A stretch of DNA of 64,000 nt from Nemertoderma westbladi (GCA_032718475.1 JAUCBJ010002619.1:1-64000), one strand, 5' to 3'; counted from the first letter of the stretch, positions 40,757 through 63,264 are shown. Program-made: numbers and translations. The notes: a model not told the origin generated them from the sequence alone.

Positions 40757-42000
40757 CTATTTTTCTGTCTTGGATAATTCTAGAATTTCATTAAGAATTC
40801 GTAGGTCCTCTTCTTCTCTTAGTTTAGATTCATCGGCGAGCATTGCACTGAGTTTGAGGGCCTTCGAGAGTTCTGTTTCTGTAGATTGTTTGACAGTAGA
40901 TACTGGCGAGTCTATATGAACCCAGTCTGCCTGCGGTTTCATTGAGTCTGTCGGCGGTTTCATTGAGTCTGTCTGGGACCTCATTGTGTCAGCCTGTGGT
41001 TTCATTGAGTCTGTCTCGGACCTCATTGAGTCTGTCGGCGGTTTCATTGCGTCTGCCTGGGCATCTTCTGAATCCGTGGTTGACCCCGCTGCGACCGTTA
41101 GAACGTCGTTAATGTGAGGGGCTCCATCAGAAGATCCTACAAACTCACTTGTACTTTCCGGCACTACTGAACTCTCTTGTTTGCCTTCGGGAAGAACCTC
41201 CACTGCAGCTGTTTGTCCCTCTGTACCCAACTGCCCCCCTGTATCCAACTGCCCCCCTGTACCCAACGGCCCCCCAGTACCAAACTGCCCCCCCGTACCC
41301 AGCGGCATCCCTGTACCTGACGGTATGTGTCCGTTTGCCCCCTTCCATTCTCTCGCCGCGGCTATGCTAGCCTCTATGGCCTTCTGCAATTCAGCCTCCT
41401 CATCCATCGCAGAACCCCCCACTTCGCTCAAATATTCCGGATGATTAATCGATAAACTCAGTTGTATAGCCTGCTGTAGAGCATCATCCTCCATGCTGCC
41501 GCTCCCTACATGGGATTCATGAGAACGCCCCCCTGCCCCTGAGCTGGAATCCACCATGTGCACGCTGTAGCCGCTAGGTGGCCGGAAGGCGGCCTCGTCT
41601 ATACAGCACGAGGGAACCGCCACCCCTACGGGGTTCCCTTCGGAGTCTGTAGGATCTCCACCAACTACAGTCACGTAATTAGGAGTTTCTACGGATCCGT
41701 TCAAGTTGTTAAAAGTAATTCTCGTATTAAAGACGTGATACAACGGTATCTCTACCTTTATGGGGAAACCGCTGGGGATCTGTAGACTTATAAAGTCTCG
41801 GAGTTTCTTAAAGTGAGCGTTACTCACGGACATGAGATCGAGTATCGGTAGGACTTGTTCCTGCACGGCTAGCGGATGCTCTTCAACCAACCACAGCGTC
41901 GCCTTAAATCTCTGGGTCTTTACGACTTCCTCTATTGGTCGACCTATATCGCGGTCCACAAGTTCCTCAGCGGGATCGAAGTAAACCTCAGGGGGGATAC
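40757..42000 (-). CDS. ANKRD13: Ankyrin repeat domain-containing protein 13 (A/B/D-like), last coding exon with UIMs
   Basis: Acceptor TCCTCTTCAG|GT at 42000 (phase 1) gives NPTG-IPPEVYFD...DIGRP...QRFKATLWL..EHPL..QEQVLPILDLM..SNAHFKKLRDFI.LQIPSGFPIKVEIPLYHV. Four UIM-like helices (LQQAIQLSL, LQKAIEASI, LSKALKLSA, LNEILELSKTEK*). Confidence 0.93.
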
Positions 42001-42120
42001 CTGAAGAGGAAATATATTAATTTATAAACCTGCGGGAAAATATATTAATATATAAATATACGGCAAATAATATTAATTTATATAGTAGATATCTGCGGGA
42101 AAATATATTAATTTATATTT
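42001..42120 (-). repeat. Short ~30-bp tandem duplications of the 3' splice site region
   Basis: Minus strand: AATTAATATATTTTCCCGCAG (ends 42093), ATTAATATATTTTCCCGCAG (ends 42030), AATTAATATATTTCCTCTTCAG (ends 42001), plus one decayed unit. Confidence 0.75.
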
Positions 42121-42184
42121 TACGTCAAGACTGAATTCGATTTAAAAAACGGGGTGACAGTGAATTTTCCCAGTGTTGAATTTA

Positions 42185-42385
42185 TTGCATCTTAGACTAA
42201 TTGGTGAGTATATTGGTAGTTAAAAAAAATATATAAATGTTGATAATAATGTAATAAAGTAATTGCAGCTTTCATACTAGTTAGGAGGAACCTGGTATAT
42301 CCGGTAAAATTCCGGCCGGAATTGACCACATTCACAGCAAAAACCACCGGAATTCCGGCCGGAACGGAATTCCGGGACATCCCTA
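42185..42385 (+). mobile_element. Solo right end of the hAT-like element, abutting the satellite
   Basis: Homologous to ~50835-51061 and ends in GGAATTCCGGGACATCCCTA. Confidence 0.8.
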
Positions 42386-45300
42386 TTTACCAGTTGGGTT
42401 AAGTGGGTTAACTTTACTTACCAGTTGGGTTCAGTGGGTTAACTTTACTTACCAGTTGGGTTCAGTGGGTTTACTTTACTTACCAGTTGGGTTCAGTAGG
42501 TTTACTTTACTTACCAGTTGGATTCAGTGGGTTAACTTTACTTACAAGTTGGGTTCAGTGGATTAACTTTACTTACCATTTGGGTTCAGTGGGTTTACTT
42601 TACTTACCAGTTGGGTTCAGTGGGTTAACTTTACTTACCAGTTGGGTTCAGTGGGTTAACTTTACTTACCAGTTGGGTTCAGTGGGTTTACTTTACTTAC
42701 CAGTTGGGTTCAATGCGTTTACTTTACTTACCAGTTGGGTTCAGTGGGTTAACTTTACTTACCAGTTGGGTTCAGTGGGTTTACTTTACTTACCAGTTGG
42801 GTTCAGTGGGTTAACTTTACTTACCAGTTGGGTTCAGTGGGTTTACTTTACTTACCAGTTGGGTTCAGTAGGTTAACTTTACTTACCAGTTGGGTTCAGT
42901 GGGTTTACTTTACTTACCAGTTGGGTTCAGTGCGTTTACTTTACTTACCAGTTGGGTTCAGTGGGTTAACTTTACTTACCAGTTGGGTTCAGTGGGTTTA
43001 CTTTACCCACCAGTTGGGTTCAGTGGGTTAACTTTACTTACCAGTTGGGTTCAGTGGGTTAACAACTTTACTTACCAGTTGGGTTCAGTGGGTTTACTTT
43101 ACTTACCAGATGGGTTCAGTGGGTTTACTTTACTTACCAGTTGGGTTCAGTGGGTTTACTTTACTTACCAGTTGGGTTTAGTGGGCTAACTTTACTTACC
43201 AGTTGGGTTCAGTGGGTTTACTTTACTTACCAGTTGGGTTCAGTGGGTTTACTTTACTTACCAGTTGGGTTCAGTGGGTTAACTTTACTTACCAGTTGGG
43301 TTCAGTGGGTTTACTTTACTTACCAGTTGGGTTCAGTGGGTTAACTTTACTTACCAGTTGGGTTCAGTGGGTTAACTTTACTTACCAGTTGGGTTCAGTG
43401 GGTATACTATACTTACCAGTTGGGTTCAGTGGGTTAACTTTACTTACCAGTTGGGTTCAGTGGGTTAACTTTACTTACCAGTTGGGTTCAGGGGGTTTAC
43501 TTTACTTACCACAGTTGGGTTCAGTGGGTTAACTTTACTTACCAGTTGGGCTCAGTGGGTCAACTTTACTTACCAGTTGGGTCCAGTCAGTGGGTTAATT
43601 TTACTTACCAGTTGGGTTCAGTGTTCAGTGGGTTAACTTCACTTACCAGTTGGGTTCAGTGGTTAACTTTACTTACCACCAGTTGGGTTCAGTGGGTTTA
43701 CTTTACTTACCAGTTGGGTTCAGTGGGTTTACTTTACTTACCAGTTGGATTTAGTGGGTTTACTTTACTTACCAGTTGGGTTCAGTGTTCAGTGGGTTAA
43801 CTTTACTTACCAGTTGGGTTCAGTGGGTTAACTTTACTTACCAGAGTGCGTTTACTTTACTTACCAGTTGGGTTCAGTGGGTTAACTTTACTTAGCAGTT
43901 GGGTTCAGTGGGTTTACTTTACCCACCAGTTGGGTTCAGTGGGTTAACTTTACTTACCAGTTGGGTTCAGTGGGTTAACAACTTTACTTACCAGTTGGGT
44001 TCAGTGGGTTTACTTTACTTACCAGATGGGTTCAGTGGGTTTACTTTACTTACCAGTTGGGTCCAGTGGGTTTACTTTACTTACCAGTTGGGTTCAGTGG
44101 GCTAACTTTACTTACCAGTTGGGTTCAGTGGGTTTACTTTACTTACCAGTTGGGTTCAGTGGGTTTACTTTACTTACCAGTTGGGTTCAGTGGGTTAACT
44201 TTACTTACCAGTTGGGTTCAGTGGGTTTACTTTACTTACCAGTTGGGTTCAGTGGGTTAACTTTACTTACCAGTTGGGTTCAGTGGGTTAACTTTACTTA
44301 CCAGTTGGGTTCAGTGGGTATACTATACTTACCATTTGGGTTCAGTGGTTTAACTTTACTTACCAGTTGGGTTCAGTGGGTTAACTTTACTTACCAGTTG
44401 GGTTCAGTGGGTTTACTTTACCCACCAGTTGGGTTCAGTGGGTTAACTTTACTTACCAGTTGGGTTCAGTGGGTTAACAACTTTACTTACCAGTTGGGTT
44501 CAGTGGGTTTACTTTACTTACCAGATGGGTTCAGTGGGTTTACTTTACTTACCAGTTGGGTTCAGTGGGTTAACTTTACTTACCAGTTGGGTTCAGTGGG
44601 TTTACTTTACTTACCAGTTGGGTTCAGTGGGTTAACTTTACTTACCAGTTGGGTTCAGTGGGTTAACTTTACTTACCAGTTGGGTTCAGTGGGTATACTA
44701 TACTTACCAGTTGGGTTCAGTGGGTTAACTTTACTTACCAGTTGGGTTCAGTGGGTTAACTTTACTTACCAGTTGGGTTCAGGGGGTTTACTTTACTTAC
44801 CACAGTTGGGTTCAGTGGGTTAACTTTACTTACCAGTTGGGTTCAGTGGGTCAACTTTACTTACCAGTTGGGTTCAGTGGGTTAATTTTACTTACCAGTT
44901 GGGTTCAGTGTTCAGTGGGTTAACTTTACTTACCAGTTGGGTTCAGTGGTTAACTTTACTTACCACCAGTTGGGTTCAGTGGGTTTACTTTACTTACCAG
45001 TTGGGTTCAGTGGGTTTACTTTACTTACCAGTTGGGTTCAGTGGGTTTACTTTATTTACCAGTTGGGTTCAGTGTTCAGTGGGTTAACTTTACTTACCAG
45101 TTGGGTTCAGTGGGTTAACTTTACTTACCAGAGTGCGTTTACTTTACTTACCAGTTGGGTTCAGTGGGTTAACTTTACTTACCAGTTGGGTTTAGTGGGT
45201 TTACTTTACCCACCAGTTGGGTTCAGTGTGTTAACTTTACTTACCAGTTGGGTTCAGTGGGTTAACAACTTTACTTACCAGTTGGGTTCAGTGGGTTTAC

Positions 45301-48300
45301 TTTACTTACCAGATGGGTTCAGTGGGTTTACTTTACTTACCAGTTGGGTTCAGTGGGTTTACTTTACTTACCAGTTGGGTTCAGTGGGCTAACTTTACTT
45401 ACCAGTTGGGTTCAGTGGGTTTACTTTACTTACCAGTTGGGTTCAGTGGGTTTACTTTACTTACCAGTTGGGTTCAGTGGGTTAACTTTACTTACCAGTT
45501 GGGCTCAGTGGGTCAACTTTACTTACCAGTTGGGTCCAGTCAGTGGGTTAATTTTACTTACCAGTTGGGTTCAGTGTTCAGTGGGTTAACTTCACTTACC
45601 AGTTGGGTTCAGTGGTTAACTTTACTTACCACCAGTTGGGTTCAGTGGGTTTACTTTACTTACCAGTTGGGTTCAGTGGGTTTACTTTACTTACCAGTTG
45701 GATTTAGTGGGTTTACTTTACTTACCAGTTGGGTTCAGTGTTCAGTGGGTTAACTTTACTTACCAGTTGGGTTCAGTGGGTTAACTTTACTTACCAGAGT
45801 GCGTTTACTTTACTTACCAGTTGGGTTCAGTGGGTTAACTTTACTTAGCAGTTGGGTTCAGTGGGTTTACTTTACCCACCAGTTGGGTTCAGTGGGTTAA
45901 CTTTACTTACCAGTTGGGTTCAGTGGGTTAACAACTTTACTTACCAGTTGGGTTCAGTGGGTTTACTTTACTTACCAGATGGGTTCAGTGGGTTTACTTT
46001 ACTTACCAGTTGGGTCCAGTGGGTTTACTTTACTTACCAGTTGGGTTCAGTGGGCTAACTTTACTTACCAGTTGGGTTCAGTGGGTTTACTTTACTTACC
46101 AGTTGGGTTCAGTGGGTTTACTTTACTTACCAGTTGGGTTCAGTGGGTTAACTTTACTTACCAGTTGGGTTCAGTGGGTTTACTTTACTTACCAGTTGGG
46201 TTCAGTGGGTTAACTTTACTTACCAGTTGGGTTCAGTGGGTTAACTTTACTTACCAGTTGGGTTCAGTGGGTATACTATACTTACCATTTGGGTTCAGTG
46301 GTTTAACTTTACTTACCAGTTGGGTTCAGTGGGTTAACTTTACTTACCAGTTGGGTTCAGTGGGTTTACTTTACCCACCAGTTGGGTTCAGTGGGTTAAC
46401 TTTACTTACCAGTTGGGTTCAGTGGGTTAACAACTTTACTTACCAGTTGGGTTCAGTGGGTTTACTTTACTTACCAGATGGGTTCAGTGGGTTTACTTTA
46501 CTTACCAGTTGGGTTCAGTGGGTTAACTTTACTTACCAGTTGGGTTCAGTGGGTTTACTTTACTTACCAGTTGGGTTCAGTGGGTTAACTTTACTTACCA
46601 GTTGGGTTCAGTGGGTTAACTTTACTTACCAGTTGGGTTCAGTGGGTATACTATACTTACCAGTTGGGTTCAGTGGGTTAACTTTACTTACCAGTTGGGT
46701 TCAGTGGGTTAACTTTACTTACCAGTTGGGTTCAGGGGGTTTACTTTACTTACCACAGTTGGGTTCAGTGGGTTAACTTTACTTACCAGTTGGGTTCAGT
46801 GGGTCAACTTTACTTACCAGTTGGGTTCAGTGGGTTAATTTTACTTACCAGTTGGGTTCAGTGTTCAGTGGGTTAACTTTACTTACCAGTTGGGTTCAGT
46901 GGTTAACTTTACTTACCACCAGTTGGGTTCAGTGGGTTTACTTTACTTACCAGTTGGGTTCAGTGGGTTTACTTTACTTACCAGTTGGGTTCAGTGGGTT
47001 TACTTTATTTACCAGTTGGGTTCAGTGTTCAGTGGGTTAACTTTACTTACCAGTTGGGTTCAGTGGGTTAACTTTACTTACCAGAGTGCGTTTACTTTAC
47101 TTACCAGTTGGGTTCAGTGGGTTAACTTTACTTACCAGTTGGGTTTAGTGGGTTTACTTTACCCACCAGTTGGGTTCAGTGGGTTAACTTTACTTACCAG
47201 TTGGGTTCAGTGGGTTAACAACTTTACTTACCAGTTGGGTTCAGTGGGTTTACTTTACTTACCAGATGGGTTCAGTGGGTTTACTTTACTTACCAGTTGG
47301 GTTCAGTGGGTTTACTTTACTTACCAGTTGGGTTCAGTGGGCTAACTTTACTTACCAGTTGGGTTCAGTGGGTTTAATTTACTTACCAGTTGGGTTCAGT
47401 GGGTTTACTTTACTTACCAGTTGGGTTCAGTGGGTTAACTTTACTTACCAGTTGGGTTCAGTGGGTTTACTTTACTTACCAGTTGGGTTCAGTGGGTTAA
47501 CTTTACTTACCAGTTGGGTTCAGTGGGTTAACTTTACTTACCAGTTGGGTTCAGTGGGTATACTATACTTACCAGTTGGGTTCAGTGGGTTAACTTTACT
47601 TACCAGTTGGGTTCAGTGGGTTAACTTTACTTACCAGTTGGGTTCAGGGGGTTTACTTTACTTACCACAGTTGGGTTCAGTGGGTTAACTTTACTTACCA
47701 GTTGGGTTCAGTGGGTCAACTTTACTTACCAGTTGGGTTCAGTGGGTTAATTTTACTTACCAGTTGGGTTCAGTGTTCAGTGGGTTAACTTTACTTACCA
47801 GTTGGGTTCAGTGGTTAACTTTACTTACCACCAGTTGGGTTCAGTGGGTTTACTTTACTTACCAGTTGGGTTCAGTGGGTTTACTTTACTTACCAGTTGG
47901 GTTCAGTGGGTTTACTTTACTTACCAGTTGGGTTCAGTGTTCAGTGGGTTAACTTTACTTACCAGTTGGGTTCAGTGGGTTAACTTTACTTACCAGTTGG
48001 GTTCAGTGGGTTTACTTTACTTACCAGTTGGGTTCAGTGGGTTTACTTTAACTTACCAGTTGGGTTCAGTGGGTTAACTTTACTTACCAGTTGGGTTCAG
48101 TGGGTTAACTTTACTTACCAGTTGGTTTCAGTTGGTTTACTTTACTTACCAGTTGGGTTCAGTGGCTTTACTTTACTTACCAGTTGGGTTCAGTGGGTTT
48201 ACTTTACTTACCAGTTGGGTTCAGTGGGTTAACTTTACTTACCAGTTGGGTTCAGTGGGTTAACTTTACTTACTAGTTGGGTTCAGTGGGTTAACTCTAC

Positions 48301-48917
48301 TTACCAGTTGGTTTACTTTACTTACCAGTTGGGTTCAGTGGGTTTACTTTATTTACCAGTTGGGTTCAGTGGGTTTACTTTACTTACCAGATGGGTTCAG
48401 TGGGTTAACTTTACTTACCAGTTGGGTTCAGTGGGTTTACTTTACTTACCAGATGGGTTCAGTGGGTTTACTTTACTTACCAGTTGGGTTCAGTGGGTTA
48501 ACTTTACTTACCAGTTGGGTTCAGTGGGTTTACTTTACTTACCAGTTGGGTTCAGTGGGTTTACTTTACTTACAAGTTGGGTTCAGTGGGTTTACTTTAC
48601 TTACCAGTTGGGTTCAGTGGGTTAACTTTACTTACCAGTTGGGTTCAGTGGGTTAACTTTACTTACCAGTTGGGTTCAGTGGGTTTACTTTACTTACCAG
48701 TTGGGTTCAGTGGGTTTACTTTACTTACCAGATGGGTTCAGTGGGTTTACTTTATTTACCAGTTGGGTTCAGTGGGTTTACTTTACTTACCAGTTGGTTT
48801 CAGTGGGTTAACTTTACTTACCAGTTGGGTTCAGTGGGTTTACTTTACTTACCAGTTGGGTTCAGTGGGTTTACTTTACTTACCAGTTGGGTTCAGTGGG
48901 TTTACTTTACTTACCAG

Positions 48918-51061
48918 TAGGGATGTCCCGGAATCAATATTTTGATTCCGGCCGGAACCGGAACCGGAATTCAACATGCCGGAATTCCGGCCGGAACCGG
49001 AATTTTGTATAAATTAGTGAAATACACTAAATGACCCATGAAACCTTATATTTTTTTTTTTGAAATAAATGAATTTTTTGGCACGTTACGGCCTATTATG
49101 GGGAAGGGAGGGGGGGGGGGGGGGGGGTACTTCGGACTTATACGACAGGGAATTCAATTTCCTTGTTTTTCAAAAACCTATATCTTTGGCCAAAAGTTAG
49201 GTTTTTTGGCTCATACTTAAAAACCTACGTTGGCCAGAGGTTTCGGGTTTCCTGGTTTCGCGACATTAGGTCGTTTAGTGCAATATCCTGGTGTCGTTAA
49301 GGGAAAGGAGCATGTTACAGTGGCATGTTATTCGAACCAGAACAATAAACGAAAGTTAATAGTATATCTTACAGTTTAATTTTGCTGGGAATAAATAGAT
49401 TTCTGGTAAGAAATAGTTTTGCTATAAATATAAATAAACATACTGTATTATAAGCAGCACCTACGGCGCAGGGAATATTGACGCATGACCCAACGTCGCC
49501 ATCGACCACACTTGCAGGACCTAAAGACGCAGGACCTGTACGTAGTGTAATAACGTTTTATATTAGTTTTAGGTTAGCCTAGTGTATTTGTGTAATATTG
49601 TATTTGTAACCTAGTAACATAAAGCACCCACTTGGAAATAAGCTGCAAAGCTTTAGGGGTAATCTAATGTTATGTTGGACAATCAATATTATAGTCGAGT
49701 CAATCTAGCAAAAAACCCGTAAGTATTTCGCAATCAATCCGAACCACATATTTTAGATTCTATATTACCTTATTAATGACAAAAAAAGTCTATAAAATTA
49801 TATTTTGCGGATCATATGTTTATTCATGGAAATTCTGCGTAAATTTGCATAACACAAGACAAACAAAAGGAACAGTAGGGGAGAGTAAGTGGCAAATTAG
49901 TGATGTTCCAGAATAATTTAATTAATTTCACAATAAGCTGTGATTCAATGGGAAATTAGTAATAAAAAAAATTGGTTTGGAAGAATTGCGAATTTGTTAT
50001 GGGTTGACCCCCTTTTTCGGCTAGATTGACTCGCCTATTAATATTATCGTATTATTTAATAATTATATCAAAGTAAAATAATGTAAAATCAATGCATAAT
50101 AATGTAAATCAATCTAAAAAACGTTAATATAAGCAAATTGCAAAACCACTCGTTAAGATAAGACCCATGTTTCACTGGTAAGTCTTATGTCATATTATTA
50201 TGACATAAGACATTAGGTCAACTTTCAAAAAATTCCTTCAGAAAATTTTTTTACATTATGTCAAAATATAATATATTATGGAACACCAACAAATTGGTTT
50301 CAATGGGAGCGTCTCCACTCTACTGGTAAATCGTAAGTAACGACTAATGAGCGAAAGTGATTATGTCCCATGTTCCATCTTTTTTTGACAAACGACTCAT
50401 CACTTATGGCATGCTGAAAGCCTGGATTGATACCTTTGGGTATAGAAATATTTTGTAAATGTGAGACTCATCTTATATTTTTTTATAACAAATGAGTTTT
50501 GACTTGTGTTACCAGTGGAGCAAGGGAGCTGTAATTTTGACATTCTGAAGACAAAATCTGAAAACAACTTGCATTTCGAATGGATTTCTTAAAAAATCTT
50601 CAGAACGACAAAAGATTTTACAAATGTGAATTAAGTTGCATTAGATTCCCATCTATCTGGAGGTTGTGGGTTCGAACCTCGTATGGGCCCCGGCAGTTTT
50701 CGTTTCGGTACGAATGATTTGAAGAGGCTAGCTTGCGGTATCTATATCTGCTTTGCATCCTTAAAGGGTAGCTCTAAGCTAACGGCCGAAGAAAACTTTA
50801 CTTTTTAACTTTTTTTTACAAGTGTTGACAAGTACTGCATCTTAAACAATAAATTGGTAAGTATATGTTAAGAAATATATATAAATTTTGATAATAATTT
50901 AACAAACTAATTCAATTGGCAACTATCAAACTAGTTAGGAACCTGGTAATTCCGGTAAAATTCCGGCCGGAATTGACCCCATTCCGGGAATTCCGGCCGG
51001 AACCGGAATCGGGCAAAAACCGCCGGAATTCCGGCCGGAACGGAATTCCGGGACATCCCTA
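48918..51061. mobile_element. Complete non-autonomous hAT-like DNA transposon (2144 bp) with 8-bp TSD
   Basis: TIR TAGGGATGTCCCGGAAT / ATTCCGGGACATCCCTA (Ac-like TAGGGATG), subterminal CCGGAA repeats, TSD CTTACCAG at 48910-48917 and 51062-51069. No transposase ORF. Confidence 0.9.
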
Positions 51062-54000
51062 CTTACCAGTTGGGTTCAGTGGGTTTACTTTACTTACCAG
51101 TTGGGTTCAGTGGGTTTACTTTACTTACCAGTTGGGTTCAGTGGGTTTACTTTACTTACCAGATGGGTTCAGTGGGTTTACTTTACTTACCAGTTGGGTC
51201 CAGTGGGTTTACTTTACTTACCAGTTGGGTTCAGTGGGCTAACTTTACTTACCAGTTGGGTTCAGTGGGTTTACTTTACTTACCAGTTGGGTTCAGTGGG
51301 TTTACTTTACTTACCAGTTGGGTTCAGTGGGTTAACTTTACTTACCAGTTGGGTTCAGTGGGTTTACTTTACTTACCAGTTGGGTTCAGTGGGTTAACTT
51401 TACTTACCAGTTGGGTTCAGTGGGTTAACTTTACTTACCAGTTGGGTTCAGTGGGTATACTATACTTACCATTTGGGTTCAGTGGTTTAACTTTACTTAC
51501 CAGTTGGGTTCAGTGGGTTAACTTTACTTACCAGTTGGGTTCAGTGGGTTTACTTTACCCACCAGTTGGGTTCAGTGGGTTAACTTTACTTACCAGTTGG
51601 GTTCAGTGGGTTAACAACTTTACTTACCAGTTGGGTTCAGTGGGTTTACTTTACTTACCAGATGGGTTCAGTGGGTTTACTTTACTTACCAGTTGGGTTC
51701 AGTGGGTTAACTTTACTTACCAGTTGGGTTCAGTGGGTTTACTTTACTTACCAGTTGGGTTCAGTGGGTTAACTTTACTTACCAGTTGGGTTCAGTGGGT
51801 TAACTTTACTTACCAGTTGGGTTCAGTGGGTATACTATACTTACCAGTTGGGTTCAGTGGGTTAACTTTACTTACCAGTTGGGTTCAGTGGGTTAACTTT
51901 ACTTACCAGTTGGGTTCAGGGGGTTTACTTTACTTACCACAGTTGGGTTCAGTGGGTTAACTTTACTTACCAGTTGGGTTCAGTGGGTCAACTTTACTTA
52001 CCAGTTGGGTTCAGTGGGTTAATTTTACTTACCAGTTGGGTTCAGTGTTCAGTGGGTTAACTTTACTTACCAGTTGGGTTCAGTGGTTAACTTTACTTAC
52101 CACCAGTTGGGTTCAGTGGGTTTACTTTACTTACCAGTTGGGTTCAGTGGGTTTACTTTACTTACCAGTTGGGTTCAGTGGGTTTACTTTATTTACCAGT
52201 TGGGTTCAGTGTTCAGTGGGTTAACTTTACTTACCAGTTGGGTTCAGTGGGTTAACTTTACTTACCAGAGTGCGTTTACTTTACTTACCAGTTGGGTTCA
52301 GTGGGTTAACTTTACTTACCAGTTGGGTTCAGTGGGTTTACTTTACTTACCAGTTGGGTTCAGTGGGTTTACTTTACTTACCAGTTGGGTTCAGTGGGTT
52401 TACTTTACTTACCAGTTGGGTTCAGTGGGTTTACTTTACTTACCAGTTGGGTTCAGTGGGTTTACTTTACTTACCAGTTGGGTTCAGTGGGTTTACTTTA
52501 CTTACCAGTTGGGTTCAGTGGGTTAACTCTACTTACCAGTTGGTTTACTTTACTTACCAGTTGGGTTCAGTGGGTTTACTTTACTTACCAGTTGGGTTCA
52601 GTGGGTTTACTTTACTTACCAGTTGGGTTCAGTGGGTTAACTTTACTTACCAGTTGGGTTCAGTGGGTTAACTTTACTTACCAGTTGGGTTCAGTGGGTT
52701 AACTCTACTTACCAGTTGGTTTACTTTACTTACCAGTTGGGTTCAGTGGTTAACTTTACTTACCACCTGTTGGGTTCAGTGGGTTAACTTTACTTACCAG
52801 TTGGGTTCAGTGGGTCAACTTTACTTACCAGTTGGGTTCAGTGGGTTTACTTTACTTACCAGTTGGGTTCAGTGTTCAGTGGGTTTACTTTACTTACCAG
52901 TTGGGTTCAGTGGGTTAACTTTACTTACCAGTTGGGTTCAGTGGGTTAACTTTACTTACCAGTTGGGTTCAGTGGGTATACTATACTTACCAGTTGGGTT
53001 CAGTGGGTTAACTTTACTTACCAGTTGGGTTCAGTGGGTCAACTTTACTTACCAGTTGGGTTCAGTGGGTTAATTTTACTTACCAGTTGGGTTCAGTGTT
53101 CAGTGGGTTAACTTTACTTACCAGTTGGGTTCAGTGGTTAACTTTACTTACCACCAGTTGGGTTCAGTGGGTTAACTTTACTTACCAGTTGGGTTCAGTG
53201 GGTCAACTTTACTTACCAGTTGGGTTCAGTGGGTTAACTTTACTTACCAGTTGGGTTCAGTGTTCAGTGGGTTTACTTTACTTACCAGTTGGGTTCAGTC
53301 GGTTAACTTTACTTACCAGTTGGGTTCAGTGGGTTAACTTTACTTACCAGTTGGGTTCAGTGGGTATACTTTACTTACCAGTTGGGTTCAGTGGGTTAAC
53401 TTTACTTACCAGTTGGGTTCAGTGGGTTAACTTTACTTACCAGTTGGGTTCAGTGGGTTAACTTTACTTACCAGTTGGGTTCAGTGCGTGTTAACTTTAC
53501 TTACCAGTTGGGTTCAGTGGTTAACTTTACTTCCACCAGTTGGGTTCAGTGGGTTAACTTTACTTACCAGTTGGGTTCAGTGGGTCAACTTTACTTACCA
53601 GTTGGGTTCAGTGGGTTAATTTTACTTACCAGTTGGGTCAGTGTTCAGTGGGTTTACTTTACTTACCAGTTGGGTTCAGTGGGTTAACTTTACTTACCAG
53701 TTGGGTTCAGTGGGGTAACTTTACTTACCAGTTGGGTTCAGTGGGTATACTATACTTACCAGTTGGGTTCAGTGGGTTAACTTTACTTACCAGTTGGGTT
53801 CAGTGGGTTAACTTTACTTACCAGTTGGGTTCAGGGGGTTTACTTTACTTACCACAGTTGGATTCAGTGGGTTAACTTTACTTACCAGTTGGGTTCAGTG
53901 GTTAACTTTACTTACCACCAGTTGGGTTCAGTGGGTTAACTTTACTTACCAGTTGGGTTCAGTGGGTCAACTTTACTTACCAGTTGGGTTCAGTGGGTTA

Positions 54001-54695
54001 ATTTTACTTACCAGTTGGGTTCAGTGTTCAGTGGGTTAACTTTACTTACCAGTTGGGTTCAGTGGGTTAACTTTACTTACCAGTTGGGTTCAGTGGGTTT
54101 ACTTTACTTACCAGTTGGGTTCAGTGGGTTTACTTTACTTACCAGTTGGGTTCAGTGGGTTAACTTTACTTACCAGTTGGGTTCAGTGGGTTAACTTTAC
54201 TTACCAGTTGGTTTCAGTTGGTTTACTTTACTTACCAGTTGGGTTCAGTGGCTTTACTTTACTTACCAGTTGGGTTCAGTGGGTTTACTTTACTTACCAG
54301 TTGGGTTCAGTGGGTTAACTTTACTTACCAGTTGGTTTCAGTGGGTTAACTTTACTTACCAGTTGGGTTCAGTGGGTTAACTCTACTTACCAGTTGGTTT
54401 ACTTTACTTACCAGTTGGGTTCAGTGGGTTTACTTTACTTACCAGTTGGGTTCAGTGGGTTAACTTTACTTACCAGTTGGGTTCAGTGGGTTTACTTTAC
54501 TTACCAGTTGGGTTCAGTGGGTTAACTTTACTTACCAGTTGGGTTCAGTGGGTTTACTTTACTTACCAGATGGGTTCAGTGGGTTTACTTTACTTACCAG
54601 TTGGGTTCAGTGGGTTAACTTTACTTACCAGTTGGGTTCAGTGGGTTTACTTTACTTACCAGTTGGGTTCAGTGGGTTTACTTTACTTACCAGTT

Positions 54696-56481
54696 TTACT
54701 TACTTTGCTGTTCAGCGAAGAGGGTGTAACACAAGGAGATCCTTTAGCTATGCCTTTTTACGCTTCAGGCATCCTCCCTTTAATCCACGAGTTGCCATCA
54801 CTTAAGGTTCGCCAAAGTTGGTTCGCTGACGACTCTTCAGGTGCCGGAAAGCTCCAGGATATTCTCGAGTGGTACGAGCACTTACTTCGTCTGGGCCCTG
54901 CTCTCGGATATTACCCTCAGTCCGCCAAGAGCTTTCTCGTTGTGGCTCCGGAGTTTCTGGAGGAAGCCCAAAGTGTATTCGCCGAGCACAATATTAACAT
55001 CGTTACAGGACACCGATTTCTGGGCGGGTTTATTGGTAGCGAGTCGGAGTGTGTGAAGTATGTCGGCGCCAAAATCGCATCCTGGGTAGCCTCAGTAGAC
55101 AAGATGGCCGAGGTGGCGGAGGCCCAACCCCACGCTGCTTTCTCAGCCGTAGTTTGCTCACTCCAACGGGAGTGGGCATACCTCCAACGCGTTGTCCCAG
55201 ACTGCAGCAGTCAGTTCGATGTGCTAGAGGAAGCGATCAGCGATAGGTTCCTGCCGGCAGTCTTCGATGGGCGAATTTCGCAACCAGAACTCAAGTTGTT
55301 TGCCCTGTCTCCGCGAATGGGTGGTCTGGGGTTGCGGAACCCGGTTAACGAGGCCGATACCAACTTTGCTGTATCAGAACTTGGGACACAGTCGCTGGTG
55401 AACGCGATCGCCGGGAAGGAGCCATTCTCCTTAGCCACCCACCTGAAGTGCATGGAGGGAGCGCGCATGACATCTCGGAAAGAGAGGCAGGGTATGGAGA
55501 AAGCCCAGCAGGAGGAAGCGTTGGAAGGAATGGCGGAGCACCAGCGTGTCGCTGTCCAACGGGCGGCGGAGTTCAGGACCGGCGGCTGGCTATCCTCTCT
55601 TCCGGTAGCCGAACACCAGTTTGACCTCTCACCCCGGGAGTTTAGGGATGCTGTGGCTGTTCGGTATGGTAGACCCCTCGTAGGTGTCCCTTGCAGATGC
55701 GACGGTTGTGGCGCTGGGTTTGATCTCAACCACGGGTTGAATTGTAAGAAGGGTGGTCTAGTGATTCAGCGTCACAACGAGCTCCGCGACGCAGTCGGTG
55801 ACCTCGCGGCCCTGGCATTCGGACCGCGAAACGTTATGCTCGAGCCAGTGGTCCGCGAGCAGCACGAGGATGGCGACGGGGCTGGTCTGCGATGCGATGT
55901 CGGCATTAGGGGAGCGTTCAGTACCCAGACACAGGCGTTGATTGACATACGTACAATTAACCTTGACGCCGTGTCTTATGCTGGGCGCTCCGTGAGGTCG
56001 GTATTGGAGTCAGCGGAAGAGGAGAAGAAACGCTTATATACAGCCGCAGTTTCCGCCCGCCGAGGTGATTTCTCCCCTTTCGTCGCCTCATGCGACGGCA
56101 TACTGGCACCGCAGGCCAATAAGCTGTTGCGAATCATCGCAGACCGCCTACACACCAACTGGGGGAAACCATACAGTTCGGTAATGGGGTGGGTGCGTGC
56201 ACGCATATCGTTCGCGATAATCCGCGGCACTTCCCATTGCCTGCGAGGGTCGCGGGTGAGATGGCGAAGCGGTTTGGGGCTTGAGGACGGCGCCGGGATA
56301 CCAGGGGGCTTTGCTTAGAGTGTTTGATCGATTATGCGGGGACTGGTATGGTATGGTATATTACATAATTATTGCTCATTGTAACTGTGTAATGGAGTTG
56401 TTACCATCTGTACTGCAAGCAATATGCTATTGATCATTTAGTGCGTTTTTGCGATAATTATAATATACATATCGGAATAAA
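54696..56481 (+). mobile_element. 5'-truncated CRE-clade (restriction-like endonuclease) non-LTR retrotransposon
   Basis: Abrupt GC-rich insert in the satellite. 3' UTR ends AATAAA. The apparent 17-bp TSD TACTTTACTTACCAGTT is at 54679-54695 and 56482-56498, with an ~11-nt satellite-like filler at the 5' junction. Confidence 0.85.
54708..56318 (+). CDS. Truncated RT plus CCHC and RLE endonuclease ORF of the CRE-like element
   Basis: EGVTQGDPLAM, WFADD, HRFLGGFIG, GGLGLRNP, GWLSSLP, CRCDGC..HGLNCKKGG..RHNELRD, EP..RCDV..IDIR..EEEKKRLY..FSPFV. Uninterrupted, starting inside RT. Confidence 0.88.
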   Translation: MFSEEGVTQGDPLAMPFYASGILPLIHELPSLKVRQSWFADDSSGAGKLQDILEWYEHLLRLGPALGYYPQSAKSFLVVAPEFLEEAQSVFAEHNINIVTGHRFLGGFIGSESECVKYVGAKIASWVASVDKMAEVAEAQPHAAFSAVVCSLQREWAYLQRVVPDCSSQFDVLEEAISDRFLPAVFDGRISQPELKLFALSPRMGGLGLRNPVNEADTNFAVSELGTQSLVNAIAGKEPFSLATHLKCMEGARMTSRKERQGMEKAQQEEALEGMAEHQRVAVQRAAEFRTGGWLSSLPVAEHQFDLSPREFRDAVAVRYGRPLVGVPCRCDGCGAGFDLNHGLNCKKGGLVIQRHNELRDAVGDLAALAFGPRNVMLEPVVREQHEDGDGAGLRCDVGIRGAFSTQTQALIDIRTINLDAVSYAGRSVRSVLESAEEEKKRLYTAAVSARRGDFSPFVASCDGILAPQANKLLRIIADRLHTNWGKPYSSVMGWVRARISFAIIRGTSHCLRGSRVRWRSGLGLEDGAGIPGGFA

Positions 56482-59400
56482 TACTTTACTTACCAGTTGG
56501 GTTCAGTGGGTTTACTTTACTTACCAGTTGGGTTCAGTGGGTTAACTTTACTTACCAGTTGGGTTCAGTGGGTTAACTTTACTTACCAGTTGGGTTCAGT
56601 GGGTTAACTTTACTTACCAGTTGGGTTCAGTGGGTTAACTTTACTTACCAGTTGGGTTCAGTGGGTTAACTTTACTTACCAGTTGGGTTCAGTGGGTTAA
56701 CTTTACTTACCAGTTGGGTTCAGTGGGTATACTATACTTACCAGTTGGGTTCAGTGGTTTAACTTTACTTACCAGTTGGGTTCAGTGGGTTAACTTTACT
56801 TACCAGTTGGGTTCAGTGGGTTTACTTTACCCACCAGTTGGGTTCAGTGGGTTAACTTTACTTACCAGTTGGGTTCAGTGGGTTAACAACTTTACTTACC
56901 AGTTGGGTTCAGTGGGTTTACTTTACTTACCAGATGGGTTCAGTGGGTTTACTTTACTTACCAGTTGGGTTCAGTGGGTTAACTTTACTTACCAGTTGGG
57001 TTCAGTGGGTTTACTTTACTTACCAGTTGGGTTCAGTGGGTTAACTTTACTTACCAGTTGGGTTCAGTGGGTTAACTTTACTTACCAGTTGGGTTCAGTG
57101 GGTATACTATACTTACCAGTTGGGTTCAGTGGGTTAACTTTACTTACCAGTTGGGTTCAGTGGGTTAACTTTACTTACCAGTTGGGTTCAGGGGGTTTAC
57201 TTTACTTACCACAGTTGGGTTCAGTGGGTTAACTTTACTTTCCAGTTGGGTTCAGTGGGTCAACTTTACTTACCAGTTGGGTTCAGTGGGTTAATTTTAC
57301 TTACCAGTTGGGTTCAGTGTTCAGTGGGTTAACTTTACTTACCAGTTGGGTTCAGTGGTTAACTTTACTTACCACCAGTTGGGTTCAGTGGGTTTACTTT
57401 ACTTACCAGTTGGGTTCAGTGGGTTTACTTTACTTACCAGTTGGGTTCAGTGGGTTTACTTTACTTACCAGTTGGGTTCAGTGTTCAGTGGGTTAACTTT
57501 ACTTACCAGTTGGGTTCAGTGGGTTAACTTTACTTACCAGAGTGCGTTTACTTTACTTACCAGTTGGGTTCAGTGGGTTAACTTTACTTACCAGTTGGGT
57601 TCAGGGGGTTTACTTTACTTACCAGATGGGTTCAGTGGGTTTACTTTACTTACCAGTTGGGTTCAGTGGGTTTACTTTACTTACCAGTTGGGTTCAGTGG
57701 GTTTACTTACTTACCAGTTGGGTTCAGTGGGTTTACTTTACTTACCAGATGGGTTCAGTGGGTTTACTTTACTTACCAGTTGGGTTCAGTGGGTTTACTT
57801 TACTTACCAGTTGGGTTCAGTGGGTTTACTTTACTTACCAGTTGGGTTCAGTGGGTTTACTTTACTTACCAGTTGGGTTCAGTGGGTTTACTTTACTTAC
57901 CAGTTGGGTTCAGTGGGTTAACTTTACTTACCAGTTGGGTTCAGAGGGTTAACTTTACTTACCAGAGTGCGTTTACTTTACTTACCAGTTGGGTTCAGTG
58001 GGTTAACTTTACTTACCAGTTGGGTTTAGTGGGTTTACTTTACCCACCAGTTGGGTTCAGTGGGTTAACTTTACTTACCAGTTGGGTTCAGTGGGTTAAC
58101 AACTTTACTTACCAGTTGGGTTCAGTGGGTTTACTTTACTTACCAGATGGGTTCAGTGGGTTTACTTTACTTACCAGTTGGGTTCAGTGGGTTTACTTTA
58201 CTTACCAGTTGGGTTCAGTGGGCTAACTTTACTTACCAGTTGGGTTCAGTGGGTTTACTTTACTTACCAGTTGGGTTCAGTGGGTTAACTTTACTTACCA
58301 GTTGGGTTCAGTGGGTTAACTTTACTTACCAGTTGGGTTCAGGGGGTTTACTTTACTTACCAGATGGGTTCAGTGGGTTTACTTTACTTACCAGTTGGGT
58401 TCAGTGGGTCAACTTTACTTACCAGTTGGGTTCAGTGGGTTAATTTTACTTACCAGTTGGGTTCAGTGTTCAGTGGGTTTACTTTACTTACCAGTTGGGT
58501 TCAGTGGGTTAACTTTACTTACCAGTTGGGTTCAGTGGGGTAACTTTACTTACCAGTTGGGTTCAGTGGGTATACTATACTTACCAGTTGGGTTCAGTGG
58601 GTTAACTTTACTTACCAGTTGGGTTCAGTGGGTTAACTTTACTTACCAGTTGGGTTCAGGGGGTTTACTTTACTTACCACAGTTGGGTTCAGTGGGTTAA
58701 CTTTACTTACCAGTTGGGTTCAGTGGTTAACTTTACTTACCACCAGTTGGGTTCAGTGGGTTAACTTTACTTACCAGTTGGGTTCAGTGGGTCAACTTTA
58801 CTTACCAGTTGGGTTCAGTGGGTTAATTTTACTTACCAGTTGGGTTCAGTGTTCAGTGGGTTAACTTTACTTACCAGTTGGGTTCAGTGGGTTAACTTTA
58901 CTTACCAGTTGGGTTCAGTGGGTTTACTTTACTTACCAGTTGGGTTCAGTGGGTTTACTTTACTTACCAGTTGGGTTCAGTGGGTTAACTTTACTTACCA
59001 GTTGGGTTCAGTGGGTTAACTTTACTTACCAGTTGGTTTCAGTTGGTTTACTTTACTTACCAGTTGGGTTCAGTGGCTTTACTTTACTTACCAGTTGGGT
59101 TCAGTGGGTTTACTTTACTTACCAGTTGGGTTCAGTGGGTTAACTTTACTTACCAGTTGGGTTCAGTGGGTTAACTTTACTTACCAGTTGGGTTCAGTGG
59201 GTTAACTCTACTTACCAGTTGGTTTACTTTACTTACCAGTTGGGTTCAGTGGGTTTACTTTACTTACCAGTTGGGTTCAGTGGGTTAACTTTACTTACCA
59301 GTTGGGTTCAGTGGGTTTACTTTACTTACCAGATGGGTTCAGTGGGTTTACTTTACTTACCAGTTGGGTTCAGTGGGTTAACTTTACTTACCAGTTGGGT

Positions 59401-62400
59401 TCAGTGGGTTTACTTTACTTACCAGTTGGGTTCAGTGGGTTTACTTTACTTACCAGTTGGGTTCAGTGGGTTTACTTTACTTACCAGTTGGGTTCAGTGG
59501 GTTAACTTTACTTACCAGTTGGGTTCAGTGGGTTAACTTTACTTACCAGTTGGGTTCAGTGGGTATACTATACTTACCAGTTGGGTTCAGTGGTTTAACT
59601 TTACTTACCAGTTGGGTTCAGTGGGTTAACTTTACTTACCAGTTGGGTTCAGTGGGTTTACTTTACCCACCAGTTGGGTTCAGTGGGTTAACTTTACTTA
59701 CCAGTTGGGTTCAGTGGGTTAACAACTTTACTTACCAGTTGGGTTCAGTGGGTTTACTTTACTTACCAGATGGGTTCAGTGGGTTTACTTTACTTACCAG
59801 TTGGGTTCAGTGGGTTAACTTTACTTACCAGTTGGGTTCAGTGGGTTTACTTTACTTACCAGTTGGGTTCAGTGGGTTAACTTTACTTACCAGTTGGGTT
59901 CAGTGGGTTAACTTTACTTACCAGTTGGGTTCAGTGGGTATACTATACTTACCAGTTGGGTTCAGTGGGTTAACTTTACTTACCAGTTGGGTTCAGTGGG
60001 TTAACTTTACTAACCAGTTGGGTTCAGGGGGTTTACTTTACTTACCACAGTTGGGTTCAGTGGGTTAACTTTACTTACCAGTTTGGTTCAGTGGGTCAAC
60101 TTTACTTACCAGTTGGGTTCAGTGGTTTAATTTTACTTATCAGTTGGGTTCAGTGTTCAGTGGGTTAACTTTACTTACCAGTTGGGTTCAGTGGTTAACT
60201 TTACTTACCACCAGTTGGGTTCAGTGGGTTTACTTTACTTACCAGTTGGGTTCAGTGGGTTTACTTTACTTACCAGTTGGGTTCAGTGGGTTTACTTTAC
60301 TTACCAGTTGGGTTCAGTGTTCAGTGGGTTAACTTTACTTACCAGTTGGGTTCAGTGGGTTAACTTTACTTACCAGAGTGCGTTTACTTTACTTACCAGT
60401 TGGGTTCAGTGTTCAGTGGGTTAACTTTACTTACCAGTTGGGTTTAGTGGGTTTACTTTACCCACCAGTTGGGTTCAGTGGGTTAACTTTACTTACCAGT
60501 TGGGTTCAGTGGGTTAACAACTTTACTTACCAGTTGGGTTCAGTGGGTTTACTTTACTTACCAGATGGGTTCAGTGGGATTACTTTACTTACCAGTTGGG
60601 TTCAGTGGGTTTACTTTACTTACCAGTTGGGTTCAGTGGGCTAACTTTACTTACCAGTTGGGTTCAGTGGGTTTACTTTACTTACCAGTTGGGTTCAGTG
60701 GGTTAACTTTACTTACCAGTTGGGTTCAGTGGGTTAACTTTACTTACCAGTTGGGTTCAGGGGGTTTACTTTACTTACCAGATGGGTTCAGTGGGTTTAC
60801 TTTACTTACCAGTTGGGTTCAGTGGGTTTACTTTACTTACCAGTTGGGTTCAGTGGGTTTACTTACTTACCAGTTGGGTTCAGTGGGTTTACTTTACTTA
60901 CCAGATGGGTTCAGTGGGTTTACTTTACTTACCAGTTGGGTTCAGTGGGTTTACTTTACTTACCAGTTGGGTTCAGTGGGTTTACTTTACTTACCAGTTT
61001 GGTTCAGTGGGTTTACTTTACTTACCAGTTGGGTTCAGTGGGTTTACTTTACTTACCAGTTGGGTTCAGTGGGTTAACTTTACTTACCAGTTGGGTTCAG
61101 TGGGTTAACTTTACTTACCAGAGTGCGTTTACTTTACTTACCAGTTGGGTTCAGTGGGTTAACTTTACTTACCAGTTGGGTTTAGTGGGTTTACTTTACC
61201 CACCAGTTGGGTTCAGTGGGTTAACTTTACTTACCAGTTGGGTTCAGTGGGTTAACAACTTTACTTACCAGTTGGGTTCAGTGGGTTTACTTTACTTACC
61301 AGTTGGGTTCAGTGGGTTTACTTTACTTACCAGTTGGGTTCAGTGGGCTAACTTTACTTACCAGTTGGGTTCAGTGGGTTTACTTTACTTACCAGTTGGG
61401 TTCAGTGGGTTAACTTTACTTACCAGTTGGGTTCAGTGGGTTAACTTTACTTACCAGTTGGGTTCAGGGGGTTTACTTTACTTACCAGATGGGTTCAGTG
61501 GGTTTACTTTACTTACCAGTTGGGTTCAGTGGGTTAACTTTACTTACCAGATGGGTTCAGTGGGTTTACTTTACTTACCAGTTGGGTTCAGTGGGTTAAC
61601 TTTACTTACCAGTTGGGTTCAGTGGGTTTACTTTACTTACCAGTTGGGTTCAGTGGGTTAACTTTACTTACCAGTTGGGTTCAGTGGGTTTACTTTACTT
61701 ACCAGTTGGGTTCAGTGGGTTAACTTTACTTACCAGATGGGTTCAGTGGGTTTACTTTACTTACCAGTTGGGTTCAGTGGGTTAACTTTACTTACCAGAT
61801 GGGTTCAGTGGGTTTACTTTACTTACCAGTTGGGTTCAGTGGGTTAACTTTACTTACCAGTTGGGTTCAGTGGGTTTACTTTACTTACCAGTTGGGTTCA
61901 GTGGGTTAACTTTACTTACCAGTTGGGTTCAGTGGGTTAACTTTACTTACCAGTTGGGTTCAGTGGGTTTACTTTACTTACCAGATGGGTTCAGTGGGTT
62001 TACTTTACTTACCAGTTGGGTTCAGTGGGTTTACTTTACTTACCAGATGGGTTCAGTGGGTTTACTTTACTTACCAGTTGGGTTCAGTGGGTTAACTTTA
62101 CTTACCAGTTGGGTTCAGTGGGTTTACTTTACTTACCAGATGGGTTCAGTGGGTTTACTTTACTTACCAGTTGGGTTCAGTGGGTTTACTTTACTTACCA
62201 GTTTGGTTCGGTGGGTTAACTTTACTTACCAGTTGGGTTCAGTGGGTTAACTTTACTTACCAGTTAGTTGGGTTCAGTGGGTTAACTTTACTTACCAGTT
62301 GGGTTCAGTGGGTTAACTTTACTTACCAGTTTGGTTCGGTGGGTTAACTTTACATACCAGTTGGGTTCAGTGGGTTAACTTTACTTACCAGTTGGGTTCG

Positions 62401-62822
62401 GTGGGTTAACTTTACTTACCAGTTGGGTTCAGTGGGTTAACTTTACTTACCAGTTGGGTTCAGTGGGTTAACTTTACTTAAAAGTTGGTTTCAGTTGGTT
62501 TACTTTACCCACCAGTTGGGTTCAGTGGGTTTACTTTACTTACCAGATGGGTTCAGTGGGTTTACTTTACTTACCAGTTGGGTTCAGTGGGTTAACTTTA
62601 CTTACCAGTTGGTTTCAGTTGGTTTACTTTACCCACCAGTTGGGTTCAGTGGGTTAACTTTACTTACCAGTTGGGTTCAGTGGGTTTACTTTACTTACCA
62701 GTTGGGTTCAGTGGGTTTACTTTACTTACCAGTTGGGTTCAGTGGGTTTACTTTACTTACCAGTTGGGTTCAGTGGGTTTACTTTACTTACCAGTTGGGT
62801 TCGGTGGGTTAACTTTACATAC

Positions 62823-63264
62823 CAGTTGGGTTCAGTGGATTTACGTGGGTCTCCACGTTATCTTCCACCTCTTCCATTCCAATCTCCCTCGACTCCGCGA
62901 CGCTACTAAGAATCCCGCCCAACGGAATCGCGTTGCGTAGCGACCGCTCCTGCTCCTTGGCCCTATCTTTATCCTCCTTAGACAGGTGCTCGGTGCGAGT
63001 CTTAGTGAATATATCCACGTTGTCTGCCGCGAATACCTTGGACTCGTAACCGTTTACAGACTCGCTGCGATCTGTTCTCCACCCCCAGATCCCGGACTTA
63101 CATCGCTGGAAGGTGATGGAGTCGGTATCGAGACTGGTGCAGAGAAGCGGGGAGGTTAGTTTCTCTGTGACGTCACACTGACGGGGTCTGAAAGAATCCC
63201 GTTGGAGGTCCGACGCTCTGATCTCCATGCGTTCCAGGTAAACGCAGTTGTGATCGTGGTCAAT
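62823..63264 (-). CDS. ANKRD13: ANKRD13 internal coding exon (upstream exons outside the window)
   Basis: Acceptor TTCGCAG|ATT at 63264. IDHDH...LTSP...LDT..ITFQRCKSGIWGWRTDRSESVNGYESKVF.A.NV...TKTRTEHLSKEDK...NPLNPTG. Donor CTG|GTATGT at 62822, phase-compatible with the 42000 exon. Confidence 0.92.

What the first reader, a model, noticed from the sequence alone, without database searches (positions are those of the whole stretch)
42386..62842. A satellite made of the host gene's own 5' splice site: ~500 tandem decoy donors in an ANKRD13 intron
Seen: the 31-bp unit is the last ~19-20 nt of the exon (encoding NPLNPT) plus the first ~11-12 nt of the intron. The first donor is CTG|GTATGT, while almost all downstream copies are CTG|GTAAGT, a better U1 match. 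Using any later donor reads GGT ATG TAA, an in-frame stop, so only the first donor yields protein. Both flanking exons are intact and phase-compatible. Established: GTAAGT is the U1 consensus, and U1 bound in long introns suppresses premature polyadenylation. Inference: the cell must pick one weaker site against hundreds of stronger ones. The array could act as a U1 sink or telescripting array, an NMD-coupled expression rheostat that depends on copy number, or a substrate for stepwise intron removal.
Basis: partly seen in the sequence, partly recalled or inferred. Interest (0 to 1): 0.88.

Follow-up and report, generated by a model that had tools for sequence, protein, structure and literature searches.

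The report
Giant splice-donor repeat in ANKRD13 intron
In an animal's ANKRD13 gene, a 31-base piece covering the end of an exon and its splice signal is copied about 530 times into the next intron; this is a very large case of a repeat type already known from human and lancelet genes, and the cell likely keeps using the first signal, so the repeat is likely tolerated and not a control device.

Summary
The 20.8-kb ANKRD13 intron (62822-42001, minus strand) holds 531 units of 31 bp: 22 exon bases plus 9 intron bases. The first donor is CTG|GTATGT; 472 later ones are CTG|GTAAGT, which pair better with U1 in a duplex calculation. Any later donor gives a stop two codons on. The kind is known: human F7, CBS, 6-16 and ABCA7 (up to about 427 units), and lancelet 'mirages'. 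In these the first donor dominates. This scan has also noted the kind in other genomes. The proposed functions get no support: the donor bases are not conserved above the rest of the unit (P=0.53), only one unit has an AG|GT ratchet, and the second donor's stop lies too near the junction for junction-dependent decay. No RNA or genome was available, so donor use is untested. What is still of interest: the decoys are naturally stronger than the true site, and the intron position is not shared by the homologous loci sampled.

The parts
62823..63264 (-). ANKRD13 internal coding exon (442 nt), ends in phase 1 after ...HVNPLNPT; its last 22 nt are the exon part of the repeat unit
   Evidence: (PF11904, E 4.9e-20)
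62815..62825 (-). Authentic donor CTG|GTATGT (first intron base 62822); intron +6..+8 (62817-62815) is the in-frame TAA read whenever a later donor is used
56482..62844 (-). 31-bp array, segment 1; first unit is the real exon-intron boundary; most diverged units in the first kb
54695..56481 (+). 5'-truncated non-LTR retrotransposon fragment, antisense to the gene, with an unbroken frame (reverse-transcriptase C-terminus, Cys/His motif, endonuclease-like tail; the CRE-like label is recalled, not from a call)
51062..54694 (-). 31-bp array, segment 2
48918..51061 (.). Non-autonomous DNA transposon with terminal inverted repeats TAGGGATGTCCC and an 8-bp target duplication CTGGTAAG (the donor itself); hAT-like by these features (label recalled)
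42386..48917 (-). 31-bp array, segment 3, with a 1953-bp higher-order duplication (1717 bp exact)
42126..42385 (-). Left end only of a second element of the same hAT-like family; it closes the array (75% identical to the first over 256 bp)
42001..42117 (-). Tandemly repeated acceptor region (period about 28): two decoy acceptors (exon starts 42092 and 42029, both give early stops) ahead of the true one (42000)
40757..42000 (-). Last coding exon (1244 nt): ANKRD13 C-terminal domain, UIM-like helices, stop at 40757
   Evidence: (PF11904 E 4.1e-40; UIM E 0.0066, below cut-off)

Best explanation
This is a tandem repeat whose unit is the gene's own exon end plus splice donor, likely grown by ordinary repeat turnover and likely tolerated because the spliceosome would mostly use the first donor it meets. 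Shown: the unit's origin, the 531 copies, the intact frame through the first donor, the stop after any later donor, higher-order duplications and two transposon insertions. All extra copies fell on the intron side, so the protein was untouched. Unequal exchange then grew the array and spread a variant with +4 A and a synonymous C, while the edge units kept older letters. Inferred from F7, CBS, 6-16 and ABCA7: donor 62822 carries most splicing, and a minor leak to the next one or two donors makes truncated messages.
For: The unit matches the exon end at 21 of 22 nt, and the match stops there. No unit-like copy lies elsewhere in the window at up to 7 mismatches, and there is no exact match in metagenome contigs. 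The spliced frame is open for 561 codons and collinear at the junction with 23 ANKRD13D homologues picked from the 120 listed. There is no excess conservation of donor bases (P=0.53). Mean divergence is 1.5%, highest in the first kb (0.82 against 0.22-0.63 substitutions per unit). Exact duplications run up to 1717 bp. A neighbouring gene has a 20.3-kb array of a 29-bp unit that starts 25 nt inside its intron and has only weak donor matches, so arrays of this size arise here without an exon end. Papers: in F7 only the most upstream donor is used, even when pseudo-sites are raised to consensus value 91, and monomer number does not matter. In ABCA7 alleles reach about 427 units, second-donor use does not change with length, and the two frameshift isoforms are minor (14% and 2%). 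Lancelet mirages do not disturb splicing.
Against: There is no RNA evidence for this gene, so first-donor use is borrowed from mammalian and lancelet cases. Here the decoys are stronger than the true site (556 GT sites in the intron pair better with U1), and +4 U is also the less favoured base against methylated U6. In F7, perfect-consensus pseudo-sites took 70-90% of splicing, and CTG|GTAAGT is one mismatch from perfect over -3..+6. By copy count the donor positions are somewhat less altered than the rest (5.7 against 9.0 altered copies per position), and no full unit has a deletion in -3..+6, whereas upstream positions do. An open frame is weak proof of life: random change at 1.5% leaves it free of stops in 39% of trials.
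Confidence: 0.7

Rival explanations
1. Leaky burden: the same neutral origin, but the stronger decoys take a large share of splicing (a fifth or more), so this allele makes much truncated message and less protein, without adaptive meaning.
For: Decoys pair better with U1. +4 A is favoured over +4 U when U6 is methylated. Perfect pseudo-sites won 70-90% in F7. CBS and 6-16 use the two nearest pseudo-sites. Long ABCA7 alleles lower expression and raise exon skipping. A possible 178-nt pseudo-exon has an acceptor in the hAT-like insert and a donor in the array.
Against: F7 pseudo-sites at consensus value 91 did not compete at all. The array has persisted through two insertions and many duplications with both exons intact.
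Confidence: 0.15
2. Regulatory device, as the first reader proposed or through U6: the array tunes ANKRD13 output by competing donors, U1 loading or protection from early 3' end formation. The single difference between true and decoy donors over -3..+8 is at +4, the base read by methylated U6.
For: There are 497 sense-strand GGTAAGT sites. Every later donor ends in a stop. The +4 U/A contrast matches the axis that METTL16 loss shifts.
Against: No excess conservation of donor alleles. Only 1 AGGT in the repeat units, with no pyrimidine tract. The intron without repeats and inserted elements would be under 400 nt, and all 8 AATAAA come from the array or the inserts. The donor-2 stop is 23 nt and the donor-3 stop 54 nt from what appears to be the last junction, at or under the 50-55 nt rule. 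Copy number did not change donor choice in F7 or ABCA7. One internal unit also has +4 T (62357).
Confidence: 0.06
3. Dead or mis-assembled copy: the gene is a recent non-functional duplicate, or the array length is an assembly product.
For: Both large introns in the window are almost the same length (20,822 and 20,609 nt), and both hold long exact internal duplications. An open frame can survive recent death (39%).
Against: Each array segment is at most 6.5 kb and is anchored at both ends by unique sequence. Unit variants form nested patterns. The insert has a clean target duplication. Both exons keep family motifs.
Confidence: 0.07
4. On origin, and compatible with the best explanation: the intron is a gain of this lineage, built from a transposon fragment with boundary repeats at both ends, as in the intron-gain model proposed for lancelet mirages.
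For: None of 27 multi-segment homologous loci has an intron at this position. By eye, 20 of the 27 (about 12 distinct genes) have one about 25-34 nt further upstream, in phase 0. Donor repeat, LINE, hAT-like pieces and acceptor repeat account for nearly the whole intron. Both ends read C-W-G|GTAT.
Against: The loci are unnamed and distant (about 35-66% identical); no close relative was seen. The nine intron bases of the unit match the next exon at only 4 of 9, so a pure exon duplication does not fit. No right-hand inverted repeat lies at the acceptor.
Confidence: 0.2

Closest known systems
Human F7 intron 7 37-bp VNTR, with CBS intron 13, 6-16 (IFI6) intron 2, LMNB2 and PDGF (Borensztajn et al. 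2006, PMC1557585; read parts 1, 3 and 4 of 6: abstract, introduction, part of results, discussion; the other four genes only as cited there)
   Same: The first monomer spans the exon-intron boundary and repeats the donor down the intron; the later donors are potentially functional.
   Different: 5-25 units there, 531 here. F7 pseudo-sites are identical to the true site; here nearly all are stronger at +4. Use of the first site is shown there and untested here.
Human ABCA7 intron 18 25-bp VNTR (De Roeck et al. 2018, PMC5954066; PMC13747324; passages read)
   Same: The repeat begins at the donor GT; alleles reach 10,678 bp, about 427 units; use of the second unit's donor gives a frameshift and early stop.
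   Different: The unit is described as starting at the GT and is C-rich, whereas this unit carries 22 exon bases and a near-consensus donor. ABCA7 length is linked to lower expression and exon skipping; nothing comparable is measured here.
Lancelet 'mirages' in Adh3, troponin C, globins BflGb6/BflGb9 and PGBD5 (Ebner et al. 2010, PMC3087553; PMC3902484; passages read; the 2002 Adh3 paper was not held)
   Same: Invertebrate tandem duplications of exon-intron boundaries at donors or acceptors; edge units escape homogenisation; proposed as a route to new introns.
   Different: 3-6 units in the globin case, against 531 here. Here both ends of one intron are repeated, and transposons have inserted in the array.
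Recursive splicing at AG|GT ratchet points (defining features recalled, no paper read)
   Same: A long intron with many internal donor motifs.
   Different: The units read CTG|GT, with no acceptor in front. One unit of 531 has CAG|GT, and it has no pyrimidine tract.

Membership tests
Exon-intron boundary minisatellite ('mirage', F7/CBS type) | Tandem unit whose first monomer spans a real exon-intron boundary | tested here: met
   22 exon + 9 intron nt; exon identity from Pfam and homologue alignment
Exon-intron boundary minisatellite ('mirage', F7/CBS type) | Splice signal reiterated inside the intron | tested here: met
   472 CTG|GTAAGT; GT intact in 521 of 526 full units
Exon-intron boundary minisatellite ('mirage', F7/CBS type) | Concerted turnover with more diverged edge units | tested here: met
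   0.82 substitutions per unit in the first kb and 0.63 in the last, against 0.22-0.59 between; higher-order duplications
Exon-intron boundary minisatellite ('mirage', F7/CBS type) | mRNA made mainly from the authentic (first) site | not testable with these tools
   No sequencing run was listed, so no reads could be laid
Exon-intron boundary minisatellite ('mirage', F7/CBS type) | Length variation between alleles or individuals | not testable with these tools
   One haplotype only; no genome held
Recursive (ratchet) splicing substrate | Pyrimidine tract + AG directly followed by a donor | tested here: not met
   19 AGGT in the intron, 1 in a repeat unit (52768) with an A/C-rich upstream; units are 19% T
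Splicing-coupled NMD switch | Alternative site creates a premature stop | tested here: met
   Donors 62791, 62760 and 62729 all give NPTGM-stop
Splicing-coupled NMD switch | Stop more than 50-55 nt upstream of a junction | tested here: inconclusive
   23 nt for donor 2 (fails), 54 for donor 3 (borderline), 85 for donor 4 (passes); rule from PMC5437961 passages, stated for mammals; a long 3' UTR route remains
Splicing-coupled NMD switch | Sequence constraint on the alternative site | tested here: not met
   12 alleles at 9 donor positions against 29 at 21 others, P=0.53; within-array test only, low power
U1 telescripting element | U1 sites shielding intronic polyadenylation signals that would otherwise be used | tested here: inconclusive
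   U1 sites are abundant, but all 8 AATAAA and the 713 AGTAAA lie in the array or inserts; use not measurable
Dispersed satellite family | Same unit at unlinked loci | tested here: inconclusive
   0 copies outside the array in the window, 0 in metagenome contigs; own genome not held

The most novel reading that the evidence does not exclude
The array is a built-in splice switch: about 470 decoy donors differ from the one productive donor only at +4 (A against U), the base that methylated U6 reads, so ANKRD13 output would be set by U6 methylation or array length, in an intron that this lineage gained and assembled wholly from boundary repeats and transposon pieces.
Probability: 0.06. Interest if true: 0.75.

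Novelty: new member of a known kind. Interest (0 to 1): 0.3.

Why it matters
As a kind it is known, so the value lies in the extreme case. It is somewhat longer than the longest donor-anchored repeat in the papers read here (531 units and 16.5 kb, against about 427 and 10.7 kb in ABCA7). Its decoys are naturally stronger than the true site, which F7 tested only with engineered mutants. One junction count from RNA would therefore test the first-donor rule in a non-mammalian animal under hard conditions. If close relatives show that the intron is new, it would also be a worked example of intron gain with boundary repeats at both ends. For gene annotation, such arrays can mislead donor prediction toward truncated models.

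Tried and rejected
RNA test: no RNA holder was listed for window 40760-42380. This is no evidence either way, and it left read laying without runs. Genome-wide scan for other boundary repeats or other copies of the unit: no genome is held. Lineage: best named homologues are lamprey, hemichordate, echinoderm, nemertean, mollusc and fish proteins at 50-58%, so the animal group stays unresolved. A search with the upstream exon found nothing at E 1e-20, and the search of cluster representatives was still queued when I stopped. Recursive splicing was rejected on sequence. Removal from the 3' side is a dead end, because joining a decoy to 42000 leaves no AG. Pure exon duplication as the intron's origin was rejected (only 4 of 9 intron bases match the next exon). 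Intron sliding by one unit was considered, because the common homologous intron lies about 31 nt upstream, but the acceptor region does not resemble the 31 exon bases; I treat it as coincidence. Papers: eight searches. In the listings no title or abstract start describes a donor satellite acting by telescripting or as a U1 sink; the library lacks most subscription papers. PMC10078293 passages added nothing on boundary-spanning units. No supplements were opened. No MaxEnt-type score was available, so U1 duplex energy was used in its place. Earlier-findings look-ups by place and by sequence were empty.

Full report
What is there. On the minus strand, an ANKRD13 exon (63264-62823) is followed by a 20,822-nt intron and a last coding exon (42000-40757). 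Both exons match Pfam ANKRD13_C, and the best homologues are animal ANKRD13D proteins at 50-58% identity. Joining 62823 to 42000 gives 561 codons without a stop. The junction NPT|GIPPEVYF lines up without gaps with NPT-AITPEEYF-like stretches in 23 homologues picked for spread from the 120 listed. The animal group could not be resolved.

The array. A wrap-around alignment gives 531 units, about 16.5 kb. The unit is the last 22 nt of the exon (21 of 22 identical) plus the first 9 nt of the intron. There are 472 exact CTG|GTAAGT donors; the first donor and one more at 62357 read CTG|GTATGT. U1 duplex energy is -6.9 kcal/mol for the true site and -10.7 for the common decoy; 556 GT sites in the intron score better than the true one (U1 end recalled). 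Donors 2, 3 and 4 were translated, and each reads GGT ATG TAA, a stop at residue 150 of the exon pair. The same stop is retained by any later donor.

The array is in three segments. A 1.8-kb 5'-truncated non-LTR retrotransposon fragment with an unbroken frame lies at 54695-56481. A 2.1-kb element with inverted ends TAGGGATGTCCC lies at 48918-51061 and has duplicated CTGGTAAG, the donor itself. A left end of the same family closes the array at 42385, and a third lies at 5446. The last 117 nt of the intron are a repeat of the acceptor, with two decoy AGs that both give early stops. Repeats and inserted elements thus make up nearly the whole intron. A second array in the window (29-bp unit, 6481-26795) fills a 20,609-nt intron of a galactosyltransferase-family gene, starts 25 nt after its donor, copies no exon, and has only weak donor matches. 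It is one case, but it shows that arrays of this size form in this genome without an exon end.

How it likely arose. The exon has GTAAA at -22 and the intron has GTAAA at +5..+9, which offers a slip point; this is inference. Extra copies land in the intron, so the protein is unchanged. Mean divergence from the consensus is 1.5%, highest at the two edges. Units form nested higher-order blocks, with exact duplications up to 1717 bp. This is the pattern of concerted turnover described for lancelet mirages. A unit near the far end (about 42570) still has the exon's AATCC spelling, which suggests that the array consensus, and perhaps its +4 A, is the derived state. No unit-like copy lies elsewhere in the window or in metagenome contigs; the genome itself is not held.

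Is it doing something? Four sequence tests bear on this. Constraint: donor positions -3..+6 carry 12 distinct substitution alleles at 9 positions, the rest 29 at 21 (P=0.53). Counted by copies the donor is a little less altered (5.7 against 9.0 per position) and has no deletions in full units, but copies are not independent. Recursive splicing: 1 of 19 AGGT sites is in a unit, and it has no pyrimidine tract. Telescripting: all 8 AATAAA and the 713 AGTAAA (a variant signal, recalled) lie in the array or the inserts, so any need for shielding is made by the array itself. Decay: the stop lies 23, 54 and 85 nt before the junction for donors 2, 3 and 4, so the most likely leak falls under the 50-55 nt rule, although a long 3' UTR could still trigger decay. 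None of these supports a device, and none can exclude one without RNA.

What is known. Borensztajn et al. 2006 (PMC1557585; parts 1, 3, 4 of 6 read) describe F7, CBS, 6-16, LMNB2 and PDGF minisatellites whose first monomer spans the boundary. In F7 only the most upstream donor is used, pseudo-sites up to consensus value 91 do not compete, and 1-12 monomers make no difference. Perfect sites do take 70-90%. The ABCA7 repeat starts at a donor and reaches about 427 units. Use of its second donor gives a premature stop and does not change with length, while expression falls and exon skipping rises with length (PMC5954066 passages; PMC13747324 passages). Lancelet mirages occur at both kinds of boundary and do not disturb splicing (PMC3087553 and PMC3902484 passages). 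Earlier notes of this scan report the same kind in annelids, sea urchins, a shark and a ray, and pointed me to the mirage papers; I checked the papers, not their DNA.

What stays open. The decoys here are naturally stronger than the true site and one mismatch from perfect, near where F7 began to leak, so a sizeable leak is possible. The difference is at +4, where methylated U6 favours A and METTL16 loss shifts use toward U (PMC11732430 passages). That makes a clean test but is no evidence of design. The intron position also looks lineage-specific. Of 80 homologous loci kept from metagenome contigs (of 113 confirmed), 76 covered the anchor and 27 were multi-segment. None of the 27 breaks at this position. 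By eye, 20 (about 12 distinct genes) have a phase-0 intron about 25-34 nt upstream, 1 has one about 10 nt upstream, 5 are continuous and 1 is cut off. These loci are distant and unnamed, so a gain is possible and not shown. An open frame alone does not prove the gene is alive (39% survival at 1.5% random change). Assembly error is unlikely for this array, because each segment is at most 6.5 kb between unique anchors, though the near-equal length of the two large introns is unexplained.

Verdict. A real, very large boundary minisatellite of a known kind; most likely neutral and tolerated through first-donor use (0.70). Rivals: leaky burden 0.15, dead or mis-assembled 0.07, regulatory device 0.06. 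Interest 0.3.

Noticed in passing
window 6481-26795: A second 20.3-kb array (29-bp unit, about 690 copies, uninterrupted, exact higher-order blocks at a 5498-bp offset) fills an intron (26820-6212, minus strand) of a galactosyltransferase-family gene (PF01762) and starts 25 nt after the donor. Both large arrays in the window begin at the 5' end of an intron, and the two introns are 20.6 and 20.8 kb long.
   Followed up: partly
window 42001-42117: The acceptor of the same ANKRD13 intron is itself repeated (period about 28); the true AG is the last of three, and the two earlier ones give early stops.
   Followed up: yes
window 48918-51061, 42126-42385, 5171-5446: Three members of one hAT-like family with ends TAGGGATGTCCC; all three left ends follow TGGTAA, so the family may prefer targets that look like splice donors.
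   Followed up: partly
window 48914-49092: A pyrimidine-rich acceptor inside the inserted element lies 178 nt before an array donor: a possible pseudo-exon.
   Followed up: no
window 42386-62822: Nearly every unit carries AGTAAA once or twice (710 in the units), a variant polyadenylation hexamer (recalled), overlapping the U1 site.
   Followed up: partly
window 29641-34834: A retrotransposon on the minus strand with reverse transcriptase, RNase H-like, zinc-knuckle and integrase-family (tyrosine recombinase) frames, DIRS-like by content (label recalled; most Pfam hits below cut-off), with a LINE reverse transcriptase frame (32254-33783) nested in it.
   Followed up: partly
window 40757-42000: The last exon lacks several intron positions seen in homologous loci (for example after GFPIKI) and has a long low-complexity insert with 18-bp and 21-bp coding repeats between the UIM-like helices.
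   Followed up: partly
window 3173-4589, 27876-28112, 35548-36058, 37742-38448: Four smaller tandem arrays (periods 154, 16, 52, 63); the 16-bp unit holds AAA-GTAAGT on the plus strand, with no exon identified beside it.
   Followed up: no
L001-L045: Many metagenome loci hold an ANKRD13-like frame with no intron over the whole stretch compared; some are on long contigs, so not all are transcripts.
   Followed up: no
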